Shown here one piece after another: positions 39,894 through 63,804 of a stretch of 64,000 nt of DNA. The DNA lies in the NCBI RefSeq assembly GCF_003018255.1, contig NZ_CP027440.1. One strand, 5' to 3'. Made by a program: the position numbers and the translations under genes. The notes below the pieces were generated by a model that was not told where the DNA came from, searched no databases, and worked only from the letters and a program-made list of their open reading frames with translations. Each line of letters begins with the position of its first letter. The stretch's first letter is position 1. The DNA comes from Escherichia coli. GTDB lineage: Bacteria; Pseudomonadota; Gammaproteobacteria; Enterobacterales; Enterobacteriaceae.

Positions 39894-40924
39894 TTCGCCA
39901 TGCCCATGCCGACGATGTTGGCGGCGACAATAATCACCACACAACCGAGGCTCAACACCGTTACCGGACGGCGACCTGCATTGTTCCACTCTTTCAGCAC
40001 CAACCCGACGATACCGCCGCACAATACATAGAAGCTCATATGCAGCATCCAACTGATGTAGTCATACTGCGCCGGAATACGCGCGTGGCCCCAGGCATAG
40101 AAAAAGAATTGCAGATACCACATCAACCCGCCCAGTGCTGAGAGTAACACATTGTGAATGATCAGCGGTTTTGCCAGCGAGAAGTCGGCTTTTAGCGACA
40201 AATCCTTCACTTTTGCCAGACGAATGAAGCAGAAACCGAGGTTAATGATCGCGCCGCCGCCCATGATGACAACATAGCTTGGCAGAGCGACATACAGTGG
40301 ATCGACGCCCAGTGCAGCAGCGGCTTCATGCATCGGTTTTGCGGCGTTCATCGCAAAGGACATCCCGGCAGAGAAAATGCCGCACATCACCGCCAGCACC
40401 AGCCCTTTTTTCAGGTTGAACTCTTCGGCTTTAATGCCCATCTTGCGCTCTTTCAACTGCCCGGCGCGAGTTACAATCCCTACGCCAATCAGCGCCACCA
40501 GAACGCCGAGCAACGTCATGCGTCCGCCTTCGGTATTAATCAGCACATCGAAATTGCCGTTGATAATTGGCGTCATCAGCGTACCGACAATCAACGTAAT
40601 GCCAATGGCGATGCCAATTCCCATCGACATGCCGAGATAACGCATGGTCAGGCCGTAGTTGATATTACCGATCCCCCACATAGCGCCGAACAGAAAAACA
40701 GGCAGCAGCGTAGAGAGACTAAACGAGCTGTAATACGCCCAGAAATTCGGTAGTAACAGGGCGCTGATGGCCCACGGCAGGATAATCCACGAAACAATCC
40801 CACCGACTGACCACATGGTTTCCCATGACCATTTTTTTACTTTTTTGAACGGAGCGTAAAAACAGGCTGCACTGGCCGCGCCGATCAAATGCCAAAATAT
40901 CCCCATCGTAATCGCGTTACTCAT
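39890..40924 (-). CDS. rhaT: L-rhamnose:H+ symporter, 344 aa
   Basis: Polytopic membrane protein, peptide [29 protein letters not shown]... Confidence 0.93.
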
Positions 40925-46933: not shown

Positions 46934-47836
46934 ATGAATCAATCTTATGGACGGCTGGTCAGTCGGGCGGCGATTGCTGCAACGGCGATGGCTTCACTGC
47001 TATTGCTGATTAAAATTTTTGCATGGTGGTATACCGGGTCGGTGAGTATTCTCGCCGCGCTGGTGGATTCGCTGGTGGATATCGGCGCGTCGTTGACGAA
47101 TTTACTGGTGGTGCGATATTCCCTGCAACCTGCCGACGATAATCACTCGTTTGGTCACGGTAAAGCTGAGTCCCTCGCGGCGCTGGCGCAAAGTATGTTT
47201 ATCTCCGGTTCAGCACTATTCCTGTTTTTGACGGGTATTCAACATCTGATATCTCCAACACCGATGACAGATCCAGGCGTCGGGGTTATCGTGACAATTG
47301 TGGCGCTAATTTGTACGATTATCCTTGTCTCGTTTCAGCGTTGGGTGGTGCGCCGGACGCAAAGCCAGGCGGTGCGGGCTGATATGCTACATTACCAGTC
47401 TGATGTTATGATGAACGGTGCAATTCTGCTGGCGCTGGGGTTGTCCTGGTACGGCTGGCATCGCGCCGATGCTCTGTTTGCATTGGGAATCGGCATCTAT
47501 ATTTTATATAGCGCGTTACGCATGGGATATGAGGCGGTACAGTCATTACTGGATCGCGCATTGCCTGATGAAGAACGGCAAGAAATTATTGATATCGTGA
47601 CTTCCTGGCCGGGTGTTAGCGGCGCTCACGATCTTCGCACGCGGCAGTCAGGGCCGACCCGCTTTATTCAGATTCATTTGGAAATGGAAGACTCTCTGCC
47701 TTTGGTTCAGGCACATATGGTGGCGGATCAGGTAGAGCAGGCTATTTTACGGCGTTTTCCGGGATCGGATGTGATTATCCATCAGGACCCCTGTTCCGTC
47801 GTACCCAGGGAGGGTAAACGGTCTATGCTTTCATAA
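46934..47836 (+). CDS. fieF: Cation-diffusion-facilitator Fe/Zn efflux transporter FieF (YiiP), 300 aa
   Basis: ORF 46916..47836; start at internal Met ([36 protein letters not shown]...). Confidence 0.92.
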
Positions 47837-52078: not shown

Positions 52079-52678
52079 TCATTTATTCAAACCTTCAAGC
52101 GATTCAGATAGCGCCAGCTTAATCGGTTCAACAGCGAAGGTCAGCCCCTTTTCGCCGTTGTCCGCGACAACATAACGCAGTGCACCTTCTGTCTCGGTGT
52201 AATAACGTTTGTTTTTCCCCGCCGTTAGTAGCGCCTGCAGTTTTTTCTGGCTTTGAGTTTTGGTCATTAATGGGGTGAGTGTGCGGATCACCGCTGCCAT
52301 GTATGCCTGAGCTTTCGCTTTCGCGGCTTTTTGCTCTGGCCCCTGGATGGGTAGCCAGGTCATTTGAATGCTTTTGATTTTTAAGGTACCGCGCTCCAGC
52401 GCAGTAGAAGCATACAAGTTCTCGTTAATTTTACTTGCTGCACGAGTGAGATTGGCTTTGTCGGGACTGCTGTCGATGGCACGAAATTCGTTCAGTGGCA
52501 GGCTGGGATTCTGGCTGTTAAAGTCTTCTCGAAACTGGCTGATGGAGAGATCGAAAGTAGGGGCTCCAGCCAGCAGATAAGGCGCGGTCGTTGCCGTATC
52601 TGGTGTTTGTGCATGCGCCGTTGTTGTAACGGTTAATGCAGAACATAAGAGAAAAAACAGCGTACACCCTGGCTTCAT
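52079..52678 (-). CDS. yiiQ: Exported DUF1454-family protein YiiQ, 199 aa
   Basis: Signal peptide MKPGCTLFFLLCSALTVTTTAHA. Confidence 0.85.
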   Translation of the reverse strand: MKPGCTLFFLLCSALTVTTTAHAQTPDTATTAPYLLAGAPTFDLSISQFREDFNSQNPSLPLNEFRAIDSSPDKANLTRAASKINENLYASTALERGTLKIKSIQMTWLPIQGPEQKAAKAKAQAYMAAVIRTLTPLMTKTQSQKKLQALLTAGKNKRYYTETEGALRYVVADNGEKGLTFAVEPIKLALSESLEGLNK

Positions 52679-52778
52679 TGACAGTACCTTTTGTTATGAC
52701 TGGCTCCGATTAAAACGATATCTGTCGCCCTTGTCAAAAGGGTAGAATCCTGGAAAAGACAACCATCAAGGAACTTAC

Positions 52779-53219
52779 ATGACCATACAGCAATGGTTAT
52801 TCTCATTTAAAGGGCGTATTGGACGCCGTGATTTCTGGATTTGGATAGGCCTGTGGTTTGCAGGCATGCTGGTGCTTTTCTCACTGGCGGGTAAAAATTT
52901 ACTCGATATTCAGACCGCGGCGTTTTGCCTTGTGTGCTTGCTTTGGCCAACAGCGGCAGTAACCGTTAAGCGCTTGCATGATCGCGGGCGTTCCGGCGCA
53001 TGGGCATTTCTGATGATTGTGGCGTGGATGCTGCTGGCGGGTAACTGGGCAATTTTACCGGGTGTCTGGCAATGGGCGGTGGGGCGTTTTGTCCCGACAT
53101 TGATTCTGGTGATGATGCTTATCGATCTTGGTGCGTTTGTTGGCACACAAGGCGAAAATAAATATGGTAAAGATACCCAGGATGTGAAGTATAAAGCCGA
53201 CAATAAATCAAGTAATTAA
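52779..53219 (+). CDS. yiiR: DUF805-family inner-membrane protein YiiR, 146 aa
   Basis: ORF-track peptide MTIQQWLFSFKGRIGRRDFWIWIGLWFAG... Confidence 0.85.
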   Translation: MTIQQWLFSFKGRIGRRDFWIWIGLWFAGMLVLFSLAGKNLLDIQTAAFCLVCLLWPTAAVTVKRLHDRGRSGAWAFLMIVAWMLLAGNWAILPGVWQWAVGRFVPTLILVMMLIDLGAFVGTQGENKYGKDTQDVKYKADNKSSN

Positions 53220-53430
53220 CCTTTAATATATCTCTTATCGCTATTTTTTTCCGGGATTGTTATTTCCACGATGCAAGTGACAATGCCCGGAAAATCCTTC
53301 TGAACTCTTCACCTTAAGCAATATCAAAAAAAATGGTAATCCATAAGATCATTACTTGTTTGTTCTTCCTTTAACGGCGCATTATTCTTAAGTCGTAATC
53401 GACAGAGAGGCGAATATACAGAGGTGCCCT

Positions 53431-53730
53431 ATGAAAGATGTCGTAGATAAATGCAGTACTAAAGGATGTGCGATTGATATCGGTACGGTGATTGATAACG
53501 ACAACTGTACCAGTAAGTTTTCGCGCTTTTTTGCCACCCGCGAAGAAGCAGAGTCCTTTATGACCAAACTGAAAGAGCTTGCCGCCGCTGCATCCTCTGC
53601 AGATGAAGGGGCCAGCGTGGCCTATAAGATTAAGGATCTGGAAGGGCAAGTTGAGCTTGATGCGGCCTTCACCTTCTCATGCCAGGCCGAGATGATTATT
53701 TTTGAGTTATCACTGCGTTCGTTAGCTTGA
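53431..53730 (+). CDS. yiiS: DUF406-family protein YiiS, 99 aa
   Basis: ORF-track peptide [26 protein letters not shown]... Confidence 0.8.
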
Positions 53731-53756
53731 TGGAGTTGCTTTAGAAGGAGTTAAAT

Positions 53757-54185
53757 ATGGCTTATAAACACATTGGCGTGGCAATTTCCGGGAATGAAGA
53801 AGATGCCTTACTGGTGAATAAAGCCCTGGAGCTCGCCAGACATAATGACGCTCACCTGACGTTAATTCATATTGATGATGGCTTAAGCGAGTTGTATCCG
53901 GGTATCTACTTCCCTGCAACAGAAGATATTCTTCAATTGTTGAAGAATAAGTCGGATAACAAGCTGTATAAACTGACGAAAAATATTCAATGGCCGAAGA
54001 CAAAACTGCGTATTGAACGCGGAGAAATGCCGGAAACACTGCTGGAAATTATGCAAAAAGAGCAGTGCGACCTCCTTGTCTGTGGTCATCACCACTCATT
54101 TATCAACCGTTTGATGCCGGCATATCGCGGGATGATCAATAAGTTGAGTGCGGATTTGCTCATCGTGCCGTTTATCGATAAGTAA
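53757..54185 (+). CDS. uspD: Universal stress protein D, 142 aa
   Basis: ORF-track peptide [40 protein letters not shown]... Confidence 0.9.
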
Positions 54186-54189
54186 CCGC

Positions 54190-54936
54190 TTACCAGTAAT
54201 GCTCCGCTGTCATATGGCCCGGTCGGCGACGTAAATGTTTCGTCATCTGCCGGGTCTCTTTCAGTAACTGTTGCGTATCGCGCACCATCTGTGGATTGCC
54301 GCACAGCATCACATGGCTGGTTTCTTTATTCATCGGCAGGCCAACCGCGCTTTCCAGTTCACCACTTTCAATTAATGCCGGTATCCGTCCGGTGAGCGAC
54401 CCCGCTGTCGTTTCCCGACTGACCACCGTCTGAATGCGCAGTTTGCCTTCGTAGCGTTTTTCCAGTTCTTGCATCAGTGGCAAATAGCTTAAGTCGGCGG
54501 CATAACGTGCGGCGTGAACCAGGACCAGATTTTTGAAGCGCTCTAAATCTTTGCCCAGTTGCAGAATCGATAAATAAGGGCCAATCGCTGTACCGGTTGC
54601 CAGCATCCATAGCGTTTCGCAATCTGGTACTTCATCCAGCACAAAGAAGCCAGCTGCTTCGCTAACCACCTGCACTTCATCGCCCGGTTTCAGTGCCGCC
54701 AGTCGTGGGCTTAATTTGCCATCGGGGACGGTGACCAGGTAAAACTCCAGATCGGGATTATCGGGCGAGTTAACATAGGAGTAGGCGCGCTGGACGCGTT
54801 CGCCGTCGATTTCAAGGCCAAGCTTGGTGAATTGCCCGGCGGTAAACGGAAGCACGGGGGCGTGAACGGTGAGACTAAACAGGGCGTCGGTCCAGTTCTG
54901 CACTTTAGTGACTTTGCCTGTTACCCAATCAGCCAT
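54190..54936 (-). CDS. fpr: Ferredoxin/flavodoxin-NADP+ reductase, 248 aa
   Basis: ORF-track peptide MADWVTGKVTKVQNWTDALFSLTVHAPVLPFTAGQFTKLG... Confidence 0.93.
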   Translation of the reverse strand: MADWVTGKVTKVQNWTDALFSLTVHAPVLPFTAGQFTKLGLEIDGERVQRAYSYVNSPDNPDLEFYLVTVPDGKLSPRLAALKPGDEVQVVSEAAGFFVLDEVPDCETLWMLATGTAIGPYLSILQLGKDLERFKNLVLVHAARYAADLSYLPLMQELEKRYEGKLRIQTVVSRETTAGSLTGRIPALIESGELESAVGLPMNKETSHVMLCGNPQMVRDTQQLLKETRQMTKHLRRRPGHMTAEHYW

Positions 54937-54983
54937 GTTTTTCTCCTGTTTTGATTGACTTGCCTTATCTTCGTTCTCCGAAC

Positions 54984-55010
54984 AAAAAAATTCCAGTCCC
55001 GAAGGACTGG
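54984..55010 (-). terminator. Rho-independent terminator of glpX (ccagtccttcgggactgg plus T-run on the minus strand)
   Basis: Plus-strand aaaaaaa-ttccagtcccgaaggactgg read downstream of the glpX stop. Confidence 0.7.
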
Positions 55011-55032
55011 AAGGCTCAATCGATCAAATCAA

Positions 55033-56043
55033 TCAGAGGATGTGCACCTGCATTTCTGGGTCTTTGCGATCCAGATAGTGGATAGACTGAATGCGGCGAA
55101 TGGTGCGTGACTTGCCGCGGATCAGCAGCGTTTCGGTAGTCGCGATATTGCCTTTGCGGCTAATACCTTCCAGCAGATCACCTTTGGTGATGCCGGTGGC
55201 AGAAAAGATGACGTTGTCGCTGCGCGCCATATCGCCCAAACGCAATACTTTACCGGCTTCGATGCCCATCGCTTTGCAGCGTGCCAGCTCCTGCTCGCCA
55301 ATGCGACGATTCTCTTCGTTGTCGCCTTTGACGTCATGACGCGCCAGCAGACGACCGTTCATGTCACCATCTAATGCGCGGATCACCGCCGCAGAAACCA
55401 CGCCTTCCGGCGCGCCACCAATACCGTACAGCACGTCAACTTCGCTGTCTGGCATACAGGTGAGAATTGAGGCTGCAACGTCGCCGTCCGGAATAGCAAA
55501 TACGCGCACGCCGAGTTGCTGCATTTCTGCGATAACGGCATCGTGGCGCGGTTTTGCCAGAATCGTTACCGTCAGTTCGCTCAACGGTTTGCCGAGCGCC
55601 GCCGCAACATTGCGCAGGTTATCCGCCAGCGGCAGGTTCAGATCAATGGTGCCTTTGGCTCCCGGTCCGACGATCAGCTTCTCCATATACATATCTGGCG
55701 CGTTGAGGAAGCAGCCTTTATCGCCTACTGCCAGCACCGCCAGCGCGTTAGCCTGGCCCATCGCCGTCATGCGCGTGCCTTCAATCGGATCAACAGCAAT
55801 ATCTACCGCGTCGCCGCGACCAGTACCGACTTTTTCACCAATGTAGAGCATCGGTGCTTCGTCGATTTCACCTTCACCAATAACGATGGTGCCGTCAATG
55901 TTGACCTGGTTGAGCATAATACGCATGGCGTTTACCGCCGCGCCGTCCGCGGTGTTTTTATCGCCGCGTCCTAACCATTTGTAGCCAGCCAGCGCCGCTG
56001 ATTCGGTGACGCGGGAAAATTCGATGGCAAGTTCTCGTCTCAT
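55033..56043 (-). CDS. glpX: Fructose-1,6-bisphosphatase class II (GlpX), 336 aa
   Basis: ORF 55033..56172; start at internal Met (MRRELAIEFSRVTESAALAGYKWLGRGDKN...). Confidence 0.92.
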   Translation of the reverse strand: MRRELAIEFSRVTESAALAGYKWLGRGDKNTADGAAVNAMRIMLNQVNIDGTIVIGEGEIDEAPMLYIGEKVGTGRGDAVDIAVDPIEGTRMTAMGQANALAVLAVGDKGCFLNAPDMYMEKLIVGPGAKGTIDLNLPLADNLRNVAAALGKPLSELTVTILAKPRHDAVIAEMQQLGVRVFAIPDGDVAASILTCMPDSEVDVLYGIGGAPEGVVSAAVIRALDGDMNGRLLARHDVKGDNEENRRIGEQELARCKAMGIEAGKVLRLGDMARSDNVIFSATGITKGDLLEGISRKGNIATTETLLIRGKSRTIRRIQSIHYLDRKDPEMQVHIL

Positions 56044-56109
56044 AGTAAACTCTAAGCAGTAAGGAATGGCGCGAAGTGTAGCACAGGGGAAGGGCGGGAT
56101 TATTGATGT

Positions 56110-56172
56110 GTGCGGGGTTGCCCCCGCACGATTCAGGACTACCGGATGCGGCATAAACGCTTCATCCGGCAT
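56110..56172. repeat. REP-like palindromic element between glpK and glpX
   Basis: gcggggttgcccccgc hairpin and ccggatgcggcataaacgcttcatccggca read directly. Confidence 0.55.
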
Positions 56173-56177
56173 TTACA

Positions 56178-59225
<3,048 letters not shown>

Positions 59226-62848: not shown

Positions 62849-63804
62849 CCCCCGGCGGCGAGCCGAATGCAGTTTGTATGACCCGCCATCTTCAAGCGAT
62901 TGAGGGTGCTGTCTGCGTTCTCTTTGCCTTTCACCGGGCCAATGACCACACGATTCCAGCCATTGTTGGTGGTGATTTTCGAGTCAAAGCCTTCAAACGC
63001 CAGCTGAGCACGTACCGTCTCTGCCTGTTCCGCGCCTCTGAACGAACCGCACTGCACCATCCAGCGGCGTTCGTCTTTTTTCTCCGCCGTCGGTTTTGGC
63101 GCGTCAGCGGCACGAGCAACCGGCGCAGCTTGCTGCGGCTTCGACTGCGCGGTCGTGTGCGCAGGGGTTTGCAGCAGATCCTGGTACGGCTGCTGAGTAG
63201 AAGCCGGTTTAGACTGGCGCGGTTGCGCCTGTACCGGCGCGGCTTGCGACGTACGCGTCTGCTGCTGCCAGCTTTGTTCAGTCGTACGCGACTGCTGAGC
63301 CAGGCGTTGCTGCTCCGCTAATTGCTGCGCCTGACGCTGGCGCTGTAGCGTTTGCTGACGCTGTTCCGGCGTCTGTTCATTCCACGGAACTTCAACCAGC
63401 TGCGTTGGCTGCTGGCGCATATCAGCCTGCATTTGCTCAAGAAGCTGGCGTTGTTCTGGTGTCAGTTGCTCCGGCGTTTTCACTTCACCACCGGCAGAAG
63501 GTTCTGTAGGCGCACGCACACCCGGCTGGCGACTTTCCAGCTCTTTGATGTAGCGCCAGCGTTCTTCTGGTTTTGGTGGTAGTCCGTTTCCGGTCACTTT
63601 CTGGCTTTGCAGTGTCTCGGACTCTTCTTTCTTGTGATGCGTAATGAAGTACAGACCACCGATAAAGGTCACAAGAACGGCGGCAGCAATAGCGACCATA
63701 GCGGGAGAAACCGCAGGCAGATTTCGTTGCTTTTTCCGTGAGGTGCTCTTTTTTCGCCGCGAAGGTGCCGGTTGGCTGCGGCGTACATAATCTCGTTGTG
63801 CCAC
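62845..63804 (-). CDS. ftsN: Cell-division protein FtsN, 319 aa
   Basis: ORF-track peptide MAQRDYVRRSQPAPSRRKKSTSRKKQRNLPAVSPAMVAIAAAVLV... with Q/P-rich periplasmic linker and C-terminal SPOR domain. Confidence 0.93.
   Translation of the reverse strand: MAQRDYVRRSQPAPSRRKKSTSRKKQRNLPAVSPAMVAIAAAVLVTFIGGLYFITHHKKEESETLQSQKVTGNGLPPKPEERWRYIKELESRQPGVRAPTEPSAGGEVKTPEQLTPEQRQLLEQMQADMRQQPTQLVEVPWNEQTPEQRQQTLQRQRQAQQLAEQQRLAQQSRTTEQSWQQQTRTSQAAPVQAQPRQSKPASTQQPYQDLLQTPAHTTAQSKPQQAAPVARAADAPKPTAEKKDERRWMVQCGSFRGAEQAETVRAQLAFEGFDSKITTNNGWNRVVIGPVKGKENADSTLNRLKMAGHTNCIRLAAGG

What the first reader, a model, noticed from the sequence alone, without database searches (positions are those of the whole stretch)
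54183..54192. Convergent uspD and fpr stops separated by only 4 bp with no hairpin between them
The two genes end tail-to-tail (uspD stop at 54183-54185, fpr stop at 54190-54192), so each transcript must terminate inside the other gene; this creates potential for antisense overlap and transcriptional interference.
Basis: seen in the sequence. Interest (0 to 1): 0.2.

Follow-up and report, generated by a model that had tools for sequence, protein, structure and literature searches.

The report
Tail-to-tail uspD and fpr genes
Two E. coli stress genes, uspD and fpr, end four bases apart facing each other, so each mRNA ends at a hairpin inside the other gene and their tails overlap by about 197 bases; this is a real but common and already published arrangement.

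Summary
uspD (53757-54185, +) stops at 54183-54185, fpr (54190-54936, -) stops at 54190-54192, and 4 nt (CCGC) lie between them. The window is E. coli chromosome, and the junction is present in 5425 of 5426 complete genomes.

Term-seq (Adams 2021) puts a strong minus-strand 3' end 126 nt past the fpr stop, inside uspD (window 54064, all three conditions). It puts a weak plus-strand 3' end 75 nt past the uspD stop, inside fpr (window 54260, LB OD 2.0 only). Both ends sit at hairpins written into the opposing coding sequence, and both regions show bicyclomycin (Rho)-sensitive readthrough.

The tails overlap by 197 nt. An RNase III-type 22-nt sense/antisense duplex from that overlap was captured with p19 (Huang 2020). 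ExcludonFinder (NAR 2025) lists uspD-fpr among 165 convergent excludons.

Tiny gaps are not rare: 4 of 14 convergent pairs in the surrounding 108 kb have 4 nt or less.

My additions are modest. Codon choice in fpr favours the hairpin, and other enterobacteria lack uspD here and abut fpr against yiiR, with a 0-nt gap in 6 of 8 genera.

Verdict: ordinary and already known. Regulatory interference is untested.

The parts
53757..54185 (+). uspD coding sequence (universal stress protein D, 142 aa); stop TAA at 54183-54185
   Evidence: ORF list; RefSeq annotation of matching genomes
54186..54189 (.). 4-nt spacer CCGC between the two stop codons (CTGC in E. albertii)
   Evidence: Sequence; alignment of Escherichia lineages
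54190..54936 (-). fpr coding sequence (flavodoxin/ferredoxin-NADP+ reductase, 248 aa); stop TAA read as TTA at 54190-54192
54216..54256 (+). Hairpin on the uspD-sense RNA, written antisense into fpr codons 227-241 (GGCCCGGUCGGCGACG / 9-nt loop / CGUCAUCUGCCGGGUC, dG -20.8 kcal/mol)
   Evidence: Folds. 0 of 3000 synonymous recodings of the fpr codons are as stable. Only 0.27% of all 43-nt windows in the 64 kb are as stable. It is 5 kcal/mol weaker on the fpr-sense strand.
54257..54264 (+). U-rich tail UCUUUCAG after the hairpin. The mapped uspD-sense RNA 3' end is at 54260 (K-12 4113796), 75 nt past the uspD stop.
   Evidence: Term-seq table of PMC7815308, LB OD 2.0 sheet, 1131 reads. Rho region peak at 4113800 (+), score 2.8.
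54060..54097 (-). Hairpin on the fpr-sense RNA, written antisense into uspD codons 102-114 (GAGUGGUG-A-UGACC ... GGUCGCACUGCUC). dG is -16.4 in this strain and -10.2 in K-12, which has T instead of C at 54092.
   Evidence: Folds. Recoding test: 1.9% as stable, 0.6% jointly with the U tract. It is 6 kcal/mol weaker on the uspD-sense strand.
54055..54059 (-). UUUUU tract after the fpr-side hairpin (AAAAA on the + strand, uspD codons Q100-K101)
   Evidence: Sequence. The tract is lost in the 85%-identity Escherichia lineage L005.
54064..54064 (-). Dominant minus-strand RNA 3' end (K-12 4113600), 126 nt past the fpr stop. It lies 1 nt after the upper stem and inside the lower stem.
   Evidence: Term-seq, about 50,000 reads on the LB 0.4 and LB 2.0 sheets, with a third occurrence after the start of the M63 sheet. 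Rho region peak at 4113576 (-), score 3.65, p = 3e-18.
54064..54260 (.). 197-nt region transcribed from both strands (complementary 3' tails of the fpr and uspD mRNAs)
   Evidence: Derived from the two Term-seq ends. uspD-fpr is listed as a convergent excludon.
54210..54231 (.). Site of a p19-captured 22-nt RNase III-type duplex: UCAUAUGGCCCGGUCGGCGACG (502 reads, 5.9 RPM) and its complement (120 reads, 1.4 RPM)
   Evidence: Table S3 of PMC7373196 (table described). The sequence matches the window.
53431..53730 (+). yiiS (DUF406), 26 nt upstream of uspD. yiiS and uspD form a two-gene block that sits at this locus only in Escherichia.
   Evidence: The block is absent here in 8 other genera.

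Best explanation
This is a convergent gene pair with no intergenic room, and the 3'-end signals of each mRNA are embedded in the coding sequence of the partner. RNA polymerase transcribing uspD crosses both stop codons and runs antisense into the last 25 codons of fpr. There the RNA forms a -20.8 kcal/mol hairpin followed by UCUUUC, and the RNA ends 75 nt past the uspD stop. Polymerase transcribing fpr runs antisense into uspD codons 114-100. There the RNA forms a hairpin followed by UUUUU, and the stable 3' end lies 126 nt past the fpr stop, at the foot of the upper stem. Untranslated antisense RNA is a Rho substrate, and both regions show bicyclomycin-sensitive readthrough. Termination is therefore most likely mixed: a weak intrinsic signal plus Rho, with the hairpins also blocking 3' exonucleases. 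The two mRNAs consequently carry 197 nt of perfectly complementary 3' tail, which can pair and be cut by RNase III, and polymerases can meet head-on. This is the 'excludon' layout. What is shown: the gene ends, the hairpins, the mapped 3' ends, the BCM effect, the captured duplex and the RNA-seq overlap call. What is inferred: that the hairpins cause or define the ends, that codon choice is selected for them, and that any regulation results.
For: Geometry. K-12 is identical at the junction and in the uspD-side hairpin. Term-seq 3' ends lie at 4113600 (-) and 4113796 (+), with Rho scores 3.65 and 2.8. As a check on the coordinate conversion, the glpX terminator end at 4114522 maps exactly into the U tract at window 54986. 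Hairpins lie immediately upstream of both mapped ends. Synonymous recoding gives 0/3000 as stable for the uspD-side hairpin and 1.9% for the fpr-side hairpin. Both hairpins are 5-6 kcal/mol more stable on the strand where they would serve the incoming transcript. Both are kept in E. albertii and in a lineage with 85% UspD identity, with G.U to A-U changes. No promoter-like site lies between the fpr stop and 54064 on the minus strand. The plus-strand end appears only in LB OD 2.0; from my own knowledge, uspD is induced in stationary phase. A p19 duplex maps in the overlap. The pair is in the excludon list, meaning overlap in at least 50% of 58 transcriptomes.
Against: All RNA data come from K-12, not this strain, which differs by one base in the fpr-side hairpin. 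The fpr-side 3' end lies 5-9 nt upstream of the U tract, so it is not a textbook intrinsic end. The uspD-side U tract is interrupted, with 5 U in 9 nt. The uspD-side end is weak (1131 reads, one condition). The duplex reads are low (5.9 and 1.4 RPM), and the same study finds at least 1 RPM of dsRNA for 87% of genes. Covariation across 12 taxa is not significant. No experiment links expression of one gene to the other.
Confidence: 0.8

Rival explanations
1. Termination is purely Rho-dependent. Rho loads on the untranslated antisense RNA and terminates diffusely further downstream. The two hairpins only stop 3'-to-5' exonucleases, so the mapped ends are processing products rather than termination sites.
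For: Both regions are listed as Rho termination regions. On the minus strand the untreated upstream/downstream reads are 179/62 against 585/739 with BCM; on the plus strand they are 134/33 against 124/86 (method). The fpr-side end sits at the foot of a stem, upstream of the U tract. Lineage L005 keeps that hairpin but has lost the U tract. The authors themselves note that Rho-terminated RNAs are trimmed.
Against: The uspD-side end falls inside the U-rich tail, 4-6 nt after the stem, as intrinsic ends do. C over G enrichment is weak: C 0.31 vs G 0.25 on the uspD extension and C 0.24 vs G 0.25 on the fpr extension. Rho scores use 800-nt windows and rise wherever antisense RNA rises.
Confidence: 0.35
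2. The hairpins are by-products of the protein sequences and codon bias, and the overlap has no function. This would simply be a compact junction where read-through RNA is tolerated.
For: There is no significant covariation; most stem columns are invariant and lie in conserved codons. The recoding test is weak in five genera, at 0.07-0.22. fpr uses rare Arg codons elsewhere too, 5 of 14 in all. dsRNA reads are low. One in four nearby convergent pairs is equally tight.
Against: 0 of 3000 recodings reach the E. coli hairpin energy, with 0.001 in Klebsiella and 0.007 in Scandinavium. The strand asymmetry from G.U pairs favours the incoming transcript for both hairpins. Experimentally mapped 3' ends coincide with both hairpins. 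The one genus where the hairpin is clearly lost (Intestinirhabdus, 0.83) has an 87-nt spacer.
Confidence: 0.2
3. The ends are set by head-on collisions of converging RNA polymerases, as proposed for overlapping bidirectional terminators.
For: Convergent transcription over the same DNA is documented here. The collision model uses RNA hairpins to position paused polymerases.
Against: That class is described as not depending on Rho and as having one shared hairpin region between the genes. Here there are two separate hairpins 197 nt apart and BCM sensitivity on both strands. The fpr-side end is equally strong in conditions where the uspD-side end is undetectable, so it does not need opposing traffic.
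Confidence: 0.08
4. The mapped 3' ends belong to independent antisense RNAs with their own promoters inside the genes, not to the uspD and fpr mRNAs.
For: Adams et al. classify both ends only as 'antisense' and do not assign them to an mRNA.
Against: The consensus scan finds no promoter-like site in the relevant stretches. RNA-seq coverage is continuous enough from each gene for ExcludonFinder to call overlap in at least half of 58 data sets. The read count at 54064 (about 50,000) is of the same order as at the glpX terminator upstream (86,731).
Confidence: 0.05

Closest known systems
Convergent excludons, i.e. overlapping 3' UTRs of tail-to-tail genes (ExcludonFinder, NAR 2025, PMC12288877)
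   Same: Adjacent genes on opposite strands whose transcripts overlap. This exact pair is in the published list of 165 convergent E. coli excludons and is singled out there as two oxidative-stress genes.
   Different: That paper gives no transcript ends, hairpins or mechanism for this pair, and reciprocal regulation has not been shown for it. It stresses synteny of excludon pairs, whereas I find the uspD-fpr adjacency only in Escherichia.
Intrinsic (Rho-independent) terminators
   Same: A G+C-rich hairpin followed by U residues, with an RNA 3' end a few nt after the stem on the uspD side.
   Different: Both signals lie inside coding sequence of the opposite strand. The U tracts are short or interrupted. 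The fpr-side end is upstream of its U tract. Both sites are BCM-sensitive. The consensus scan misses both.
Rho-dependent termination of antisense and untranslated RNA, with hairpin-protected processed 3' ends (Peters 2012 and Dar & Sorek 2018, as cited in PMC7815308)
   Same: The RNA becomes untranslated once past its stop codon, readthrough rises with bicyclomycin, and the stable end sits at the base of a stem.
   Different: No clear C-rich, G-poor rut region. The uspD-side end looks like an intrinsic end.
Overlapping bidirectional terminators between convergent genes (Ju et al. 2019; Wang et al., bioRxiv 10.1101/2022.10.23.513370)
   Same: A convergent pair whose 3' ends overlap, with hairpins at the ends.
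   Different: That class has one shared element in an intergenic region and is described as Rho-independent. Here there are two separate elements inside the genes, a 197-nt overlap and Rho sensitivity.

Membership tests
Convergent excludon | Neighbouring genes on opposite strands, tail to tail | tested here: met
Convergent excludon | The transcripts of the two genes overlap | tested here: met
   Public Term-seq ends at window 54064 (-) and 54260 (+) give a 197-nt overlap. The pair is listed in ExcludonFinder Table 1. These are K-12 data transferred to this strain by sequence identity.
Convergent excludon | The overlap forms dsRNA that RNase III processes | tested here: inconclusive
   One p19-captured 22-nt duplex with both strands at or above 1 RPM maps at 54210-54231. 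The level is low, and such reads are reported for 87% of genes.
Convergent excludon | Expression of one gene lowers expression of the other (mutual exclusion) | not testable with these tools
   No expression data were examined here, and I found no paper that tests it for this pair.
Intrinsic terminator | Stable G+C-rich stem-loop in the nascent RNA | tested here: met
   -20.8 kcal/mol on the uspD side and -16.4 on the fpr side (-10.2 in K-12)
Intrinsic terminator | Uninterrupted U tract directly after the stem, with the 3' end in it | tested here: inconclusive
   On the uspD side the tail is UCUUUCAG and the end falls in it. On the fpr side the tract is UUUUU but the mapped end is 5-9 nt upstream of it.
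Intrinsic terminator | Independence from Rho | tested here: not met
   Both sites are in the BCM-defined Rho termination regions of PMC7815308 (scores 2.8 and 3.65).
Rho-dependent terminator | Readthrough increases when Rho is inhibited | tested here: met
   Public DirectRNA-seq with and without BCM (method)
Rho-dependent terminator | C-rich, G-poor unstructured upstream RNA (rut) | tested here: inconclusive
   C/G is 0.31/0.25 on the uspD extension, 0.24/0.25 on the fpr extension and 0.22/0.17 further on.
Overlapping bidirectional terminator (Ju 2019 type) | A single shared hairpin region between the genes that ends both transcripts, independent of Rho | tested here: not met
   Two separate hairpins inside the genes, 3' ends 197 nt apart and BCM-sensitive (definition)

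The most novel reading that the evidence does not exclude
The last 25 codons of fpr may double as a terminator for whichever gene runs into fpr. The antisense hairpin plus UCUUUC tail is kept across Enterobacteriaceae. In 6 of 8 other genera yiiR abuts fpr with a 0-nt gap, and rare Arg codons CGG229 and CGA238 form the outer stem. In one of the two genera that have a real spacer (Intestinirhabdus) the hairpin is clearly lost. On this reading, the Escherichia-specific arrival of the yiiS-uspD block next to fpr needed no terminator of its own, and codon choice at the end of fpr is shaped by the neighbour's transcription. Homologous Usp modules elsewhere carry their own terminator-like hairpin.
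Probability: 0.3. Interest if true: 0.35.

Novelty: already known. Interest (0 to 1): 0.15.

Why it matters
This locus is a clean, fully documented small example of how a compact bacterial genome ends transcripts when two genes leave no space between them. The signals are written into the other gene's codons on the opposite strand, with Rho as a back-up.

It matters mainly as a caution for annotation and for synthetic recoding. Synonymous changes near the 3' end of fpr or in uspD codons 100-114 could alter the partner's mRNA.

It adds little biologically. The pair is one of about 165 such pairs already catalogued in E. coli, and no regulatory consequence has been shown.

Tried and rejected
- **Rfam:** an E-value scan of 52500-56500 gave only two chance-level hits away from the junction.
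- **Terminator consensus scan:** nothing at the junction, and both real hairpins were missed because of bulges and a 9-nt loop.
- **Genome-contig scan with UspD:** only E. coli and E. albertii came back, so I reached other genera through Fpr homologues and their contigs.
- **Covariation test on the fpr-embedded hairpin across 12 taxa:** 87.5% of cells are paired, against 29-55% for slid controls, but the result is not better than shuffles because the columns hardly vary. I do not claim covariation support.
- **fpr transcript in yiiR-convergent genera:** a search for an embedded terminator found an invariant 9-bp hairpin 60-85 nt past the fpr stop, but with no U tract and no covariation. I left this open.
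- **Origin of the CCGC spacer:** I considered that it is a relic of the ancestral yiiR end '...TAC CGC TGA'. That fits Enterobacter-type sequences, but not Salmonella or Klebsiella, whose yiiR tails resemble E. coli's, so I dropped the idea.
- **Papers not reachable:** supplements of Dar & Sorek 2018, the ExcludonFinder paper and Altuvia 2018 are not held. Ju 2019 and Thomason 2015 are not held at all.

Full report
**What is in the sequence**

The window is E. coli chromosome. A 1.3-kb query across the site matches 5425 of 5426 complete E. coli genomes (one place covers at least 80% of the query in 5424), where RefSeq annotates yiiS, uspD and fpr. The local order is yiiQ< yiiR> yiiS> uspD> <fpr <glpX <glpK <glpF.

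- uspD is the ORF 53757..54185 on the plus strand, with TAA at 54183-54185.
- fpr is the ORF 54190..54936 on the minus strand, with its TAA at 54190-54192.
- The four bases between them are CCGC.

K-12 MG1655 has the same junction, with uspD at 4113293-4113721 and fpr at 4113726-4114472. K-12 is identical across the junction and the first 75 nt on the fpr side. Window coordinate = K-12 coordinate minus 4059536. I checked this conversion on the glpX terminator: its Term-seq end at 4114522 falls in the U tract at window 54986.

**Is it unusual?**

No. In 108 kb of K-12 around the locus there are 14 convergent pairs. Four of them have 4 nt or less between the coding sequences:

- rhaR-rhaT: -4
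- uspD-fpr: 4
- frwD-yijO: -14
- oxyR-sthA: -18

. All four appear in the published excludon list. The junction itself is fixed in the species. A 60-nt query centred on it is found in 5425 of 5426 genomes, identical in 3698 and with 1-3 mismatches in the rest.

**Where the transcripts end**

Supplementary file 1 of Adams et al. 2021 (PMC7815308) lists two relevant RNA 3' ends.

- **Minus strand, 4113600.** This end has about 50,000 reads and is classed 'antisense uspD'. It is on the LB OD 0.4 and LB OD 2.0 sheets, with a third occurrence after the start of the M63 sheet.
- **Plus strand, 4113796.** This end has 1131 reads and is classed 'antisense fpr'. It is on the LB OD 2.0 sheet only.

In window terms these are 54064 and 54260. 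They lie 126 nt past the fpr stop, inside uspD codon 103, and 75 nt past the uspD stop, inside fpr codon 226. Both mRNAs therefore end inside the partner gene, and 54064-54260 (197 nt) is transcribed from both strands.

The same paper's bicyclomycin experiment lists Rho termination regions at both places (method):

| Peak position | Strand | Untreated reads up/down | BCM reads up/down | Rho score | p |
|---|---|---|---|---|---|
| 4113576 | - | 179/62 | 585/739 | 3.65 | 3e-18 |
| 4113800 | + | 134/33 | 124/86 | 2.8 | 1e-5 |

**What sits at those ends**

Each end lies at a hairpin that the consensus scan missed.

On the plus strand, 54216-54256 folds as GGCCCGGUCGGCGACG / 9-nt loop / CGUCAUCUGCCGGGUC at -20.8 kcal/mol. 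It is followed by UCUUUCAG, and the mapped end is the third U of that tail.

On the minus strand, 54097 down to 54060 folds as a 13-bp bulged stem at -16.4 kcal/mol, followed by UUUUUG. K-12 has T instead of C at 54092, a synonymous His codon change. That puts an A.C mismatch in the lower stem and weakens it to -10.2. The mapped end lies one base after the upper stem and 5-9 nt before the U tract. This looks like a trimmed end rather than a textbook intrinsic one.

**Are the hairpins more than a by-product of coding?**

Three tests bear on this.

1. **Synonymous recoding.** Recoding the 18 fpr codons with local codon usage gives a mean of -12.6 kcal/mol (sd 2.4), and none of 3000 recodings is as stable as the real sequence. 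For the 17 uspD codons, 1.9% are as stable, and 0.6% when the U tract is also required.
2. **Genome background.** Only 0.27% of all 43-nt windows in the 64 kb, both strands, reach -20.8, and 2.0% reach -16.4.
3. **Strand asymmetry.** Both hairpins are 5-6 kcal/mol more stable on the strand of the incoming transcript than on the host gene's own mRNA, because several pairs are G.U.

The positions were chosen by an independent experiment, not by my folding, so the recoding test is not badly post hoc.

Against this, a 12-taxon alignment keeps 87.5% of cells paired (29-55% for slid controls) but shows no significant covariation, because the columns barely vary.

**Evidence that the tails meet**

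Table S3 of Huang et al. 2020 (PMC7373196) lists perfectly paired 21-22-nt duplexes with 2-nt overhangs captured by the p19 dsRNA-binding protein in cells with RNase III. One is UCAUAUGGCCCGGUCGGCGACG (502 reads, 5.9 RPM) with its complement (120 reads, 1.4 RPM), assigned to fpr. It equals window 54210-54231, inside the overlap. The level is low, and the authors report at least 1 RPM for 87% of genes, so this shows pairing occurs but not that it matters.

ExcludonFinder (PMC12288877) calls uspD-fpr a convergent excludon in at least half of 58 MG1655 transcriptomes and cites it as a pair of oxidative-stress genes. A search of the library for papers holding both gene names found no other paper that deals with their arrangement.

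**Comparative context**

The uspD-fpr adjacency with a 4-nt gap holds in E. coli, in E. albertii (spacer CTGC) and in a lineage whose UspD is 85% identical.

In eight other genera reached through Fpr homologues, yiiS-uspD is absent from this locus and fpr converges on yiiR instead.

- The gap is 0 nt in Klebsiella, Enterobacter, Pseudescherichia, Kosakonia, Scandinavium and Trabulsiella, for example TGG TAA|TCA.
- The gap is 106 nt in Salmonella, where I read the spacer as a REP-like element (not tested), and 87 nt in Intestinirhabdus.

So a near-zero spacer at the end of fpr is the general state, and Escherichia merely has a different partner.

The fpr-embedded hairpin and its UCUUUC tail are present in most of these genera. 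The recoding test (fraction of recodings as stable as the real sequence) gives:

| Genus | Fraction as stable |
|---|---|
| Klebsiella | 0.001 |
| Scandinavium | 0.007 |
| Salmonella, Enterobacter, Pseudescherichia, Kosakonia, Trabulsiella | 0.07-0.22 |
| Intestinirhabdus | 0.83 |

In Intestinirhabdus the hairpin is broken and a spacer exists. The outer stem is made by the rare Arg codons CGG229 and CGA238, which account for 3 and 5 of 100 Arg codons in eight local genes.

A DUF406-Usp pair with 57% identity sits beside sulfite-reductase-like genes in another genome and has its own downstream hairpin, GGCGACTTTTGGTCGCC.

**Mechanism I consider most likely (confidence 0.8 for the layout, lower for the details)**

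Each polymerase reads through both stop codons into the partner gene. The nascent RNA, now untranslated, folds the embedded hairpin. Release happens there weakly and is completed by Rho. The hairpins then protect the ends.

The fpr tail is present in all three conditions tested. The uspD tail appears in the LB OD 2.0 sample, which fits stationary-phase induction of uspD (my knowledge, not tested here). The complementary tails can pair and be cut by RNase III.

Whether this changes the amount of either protein is unknown.

**Rivals**

- Rho only, with the hairpins acting as exonuclease blocks (0.35; this rival overlaps with the main account).
- Hairpins as coding by-products with no function (0.2).
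- Polymerase collision (0.08).
- Independent antisense RNAs (0.05).

**Verdict**

The arrangement is common and this pair is already catalogued.

My additions are the assignment of the two 'antisense' Term-seq ends to the fpr and uspD mRNAs, the codon-level evidence for embedded hairpins, and the finding that fpr abuts its neighbour with no spacer across most of the enterobacterial genera sampled. These are small.

Interest is 0.15.

Noticed in passing
L012/L013/L014/L017/L018/L020 at 2245-2250; L011 2248-2353; L019 2248-2334: In eight non-Escherichia genera yiiS-uspD is missing from this locus and fpr converges on yiiR (DUF805). The two stop codons touch (0-nt gap) in six genera. Salmonella has a 106-nt spacer that looks like a REP element (my reading, not tested), and Intestinirhabdus has an 87-nt spacer.
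   Followed up: partly
L009 1172-1923 and downstream to about 2000 (GCA_910664845.1); also L010: A DUF406 + Usp gene pair with 57% identity to UspD and similar gene spacing lies next to sulfite-reductase-like genes. It is followed by its own terminator-like hairpin GGCGACTTTTGGTCGCC. The two-gene module therefore sits at different loci in different genomes.
   Followed up: partly
window 54092: There is a synonymous C/T polymorphism in a uspD His codon: C here and in E. albertii, T in K-12. It turns an A.C mismatch into a G-C pair in the fpr-side hairpin (-10.2 to -16.4 kcal/mol). About 45% of complete E. coli genomes (2450 of 5425) are identical to the window over 54048-54107.
   Followed up: partly
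window 54991-55012 (-), tail 54981-54990: This is a canonical intrinsic terminator of glpX (9-bp stem, UUUUUUU) in the glpX-fpr spacer. The K-12 Term-seq end at 4114522 (86,731 reads) falls in its U tract. fpr therefore has its own transcription unit downstream of it.
   Followed up: yes
K-12 4099491-4099494 (rhaR/rhaT, roughly window 39955-39958 if collinear); K-12 4147466-4147479 (frwD/yijO) and 4159390-4159407 (oxyR/sthA), both outside the window: Three other convergent pairs nearby have overlapping coding sequences (4, 14 and 18 nt). All three are in the published excludon list.
   Followed up: no
L012-L020, 60-85 nt past the fpr stop (alignment A4 columns 60-85): An invariant 9-bp hairpin (CCUGGGUGC...GCGCCCAGG) lies in the antisense of the yiiR codons for 'GAFVGTQG', downstream of fpr, in the zero-gap genera. 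It has no U tract and no covariation, and its role as an fpr 3'-end structure is untested.
   Followed up: partly
window 53209-53219 and 54180-54189: The hexamer AAGTAA occurs at the end of yiiR (TCAAGTAATTAACC) and again at the end of uspD (GATAAGTAACCGC), so it brackets the yiiS-uspD block. This could be a chance match or a trace of how the block was inserted.
   Followed up: no
window minus strand 16518-16476, 43941-43899, 51212-51170, 402-360; plus strand 46967-47009, 63331-63373: These are the only other 43-nt windows with dG of -20.8 or lower followed by at least 5 T in 9 nt. They are probably ordinary terminators of other genes and were not examined.
   Followed up: no
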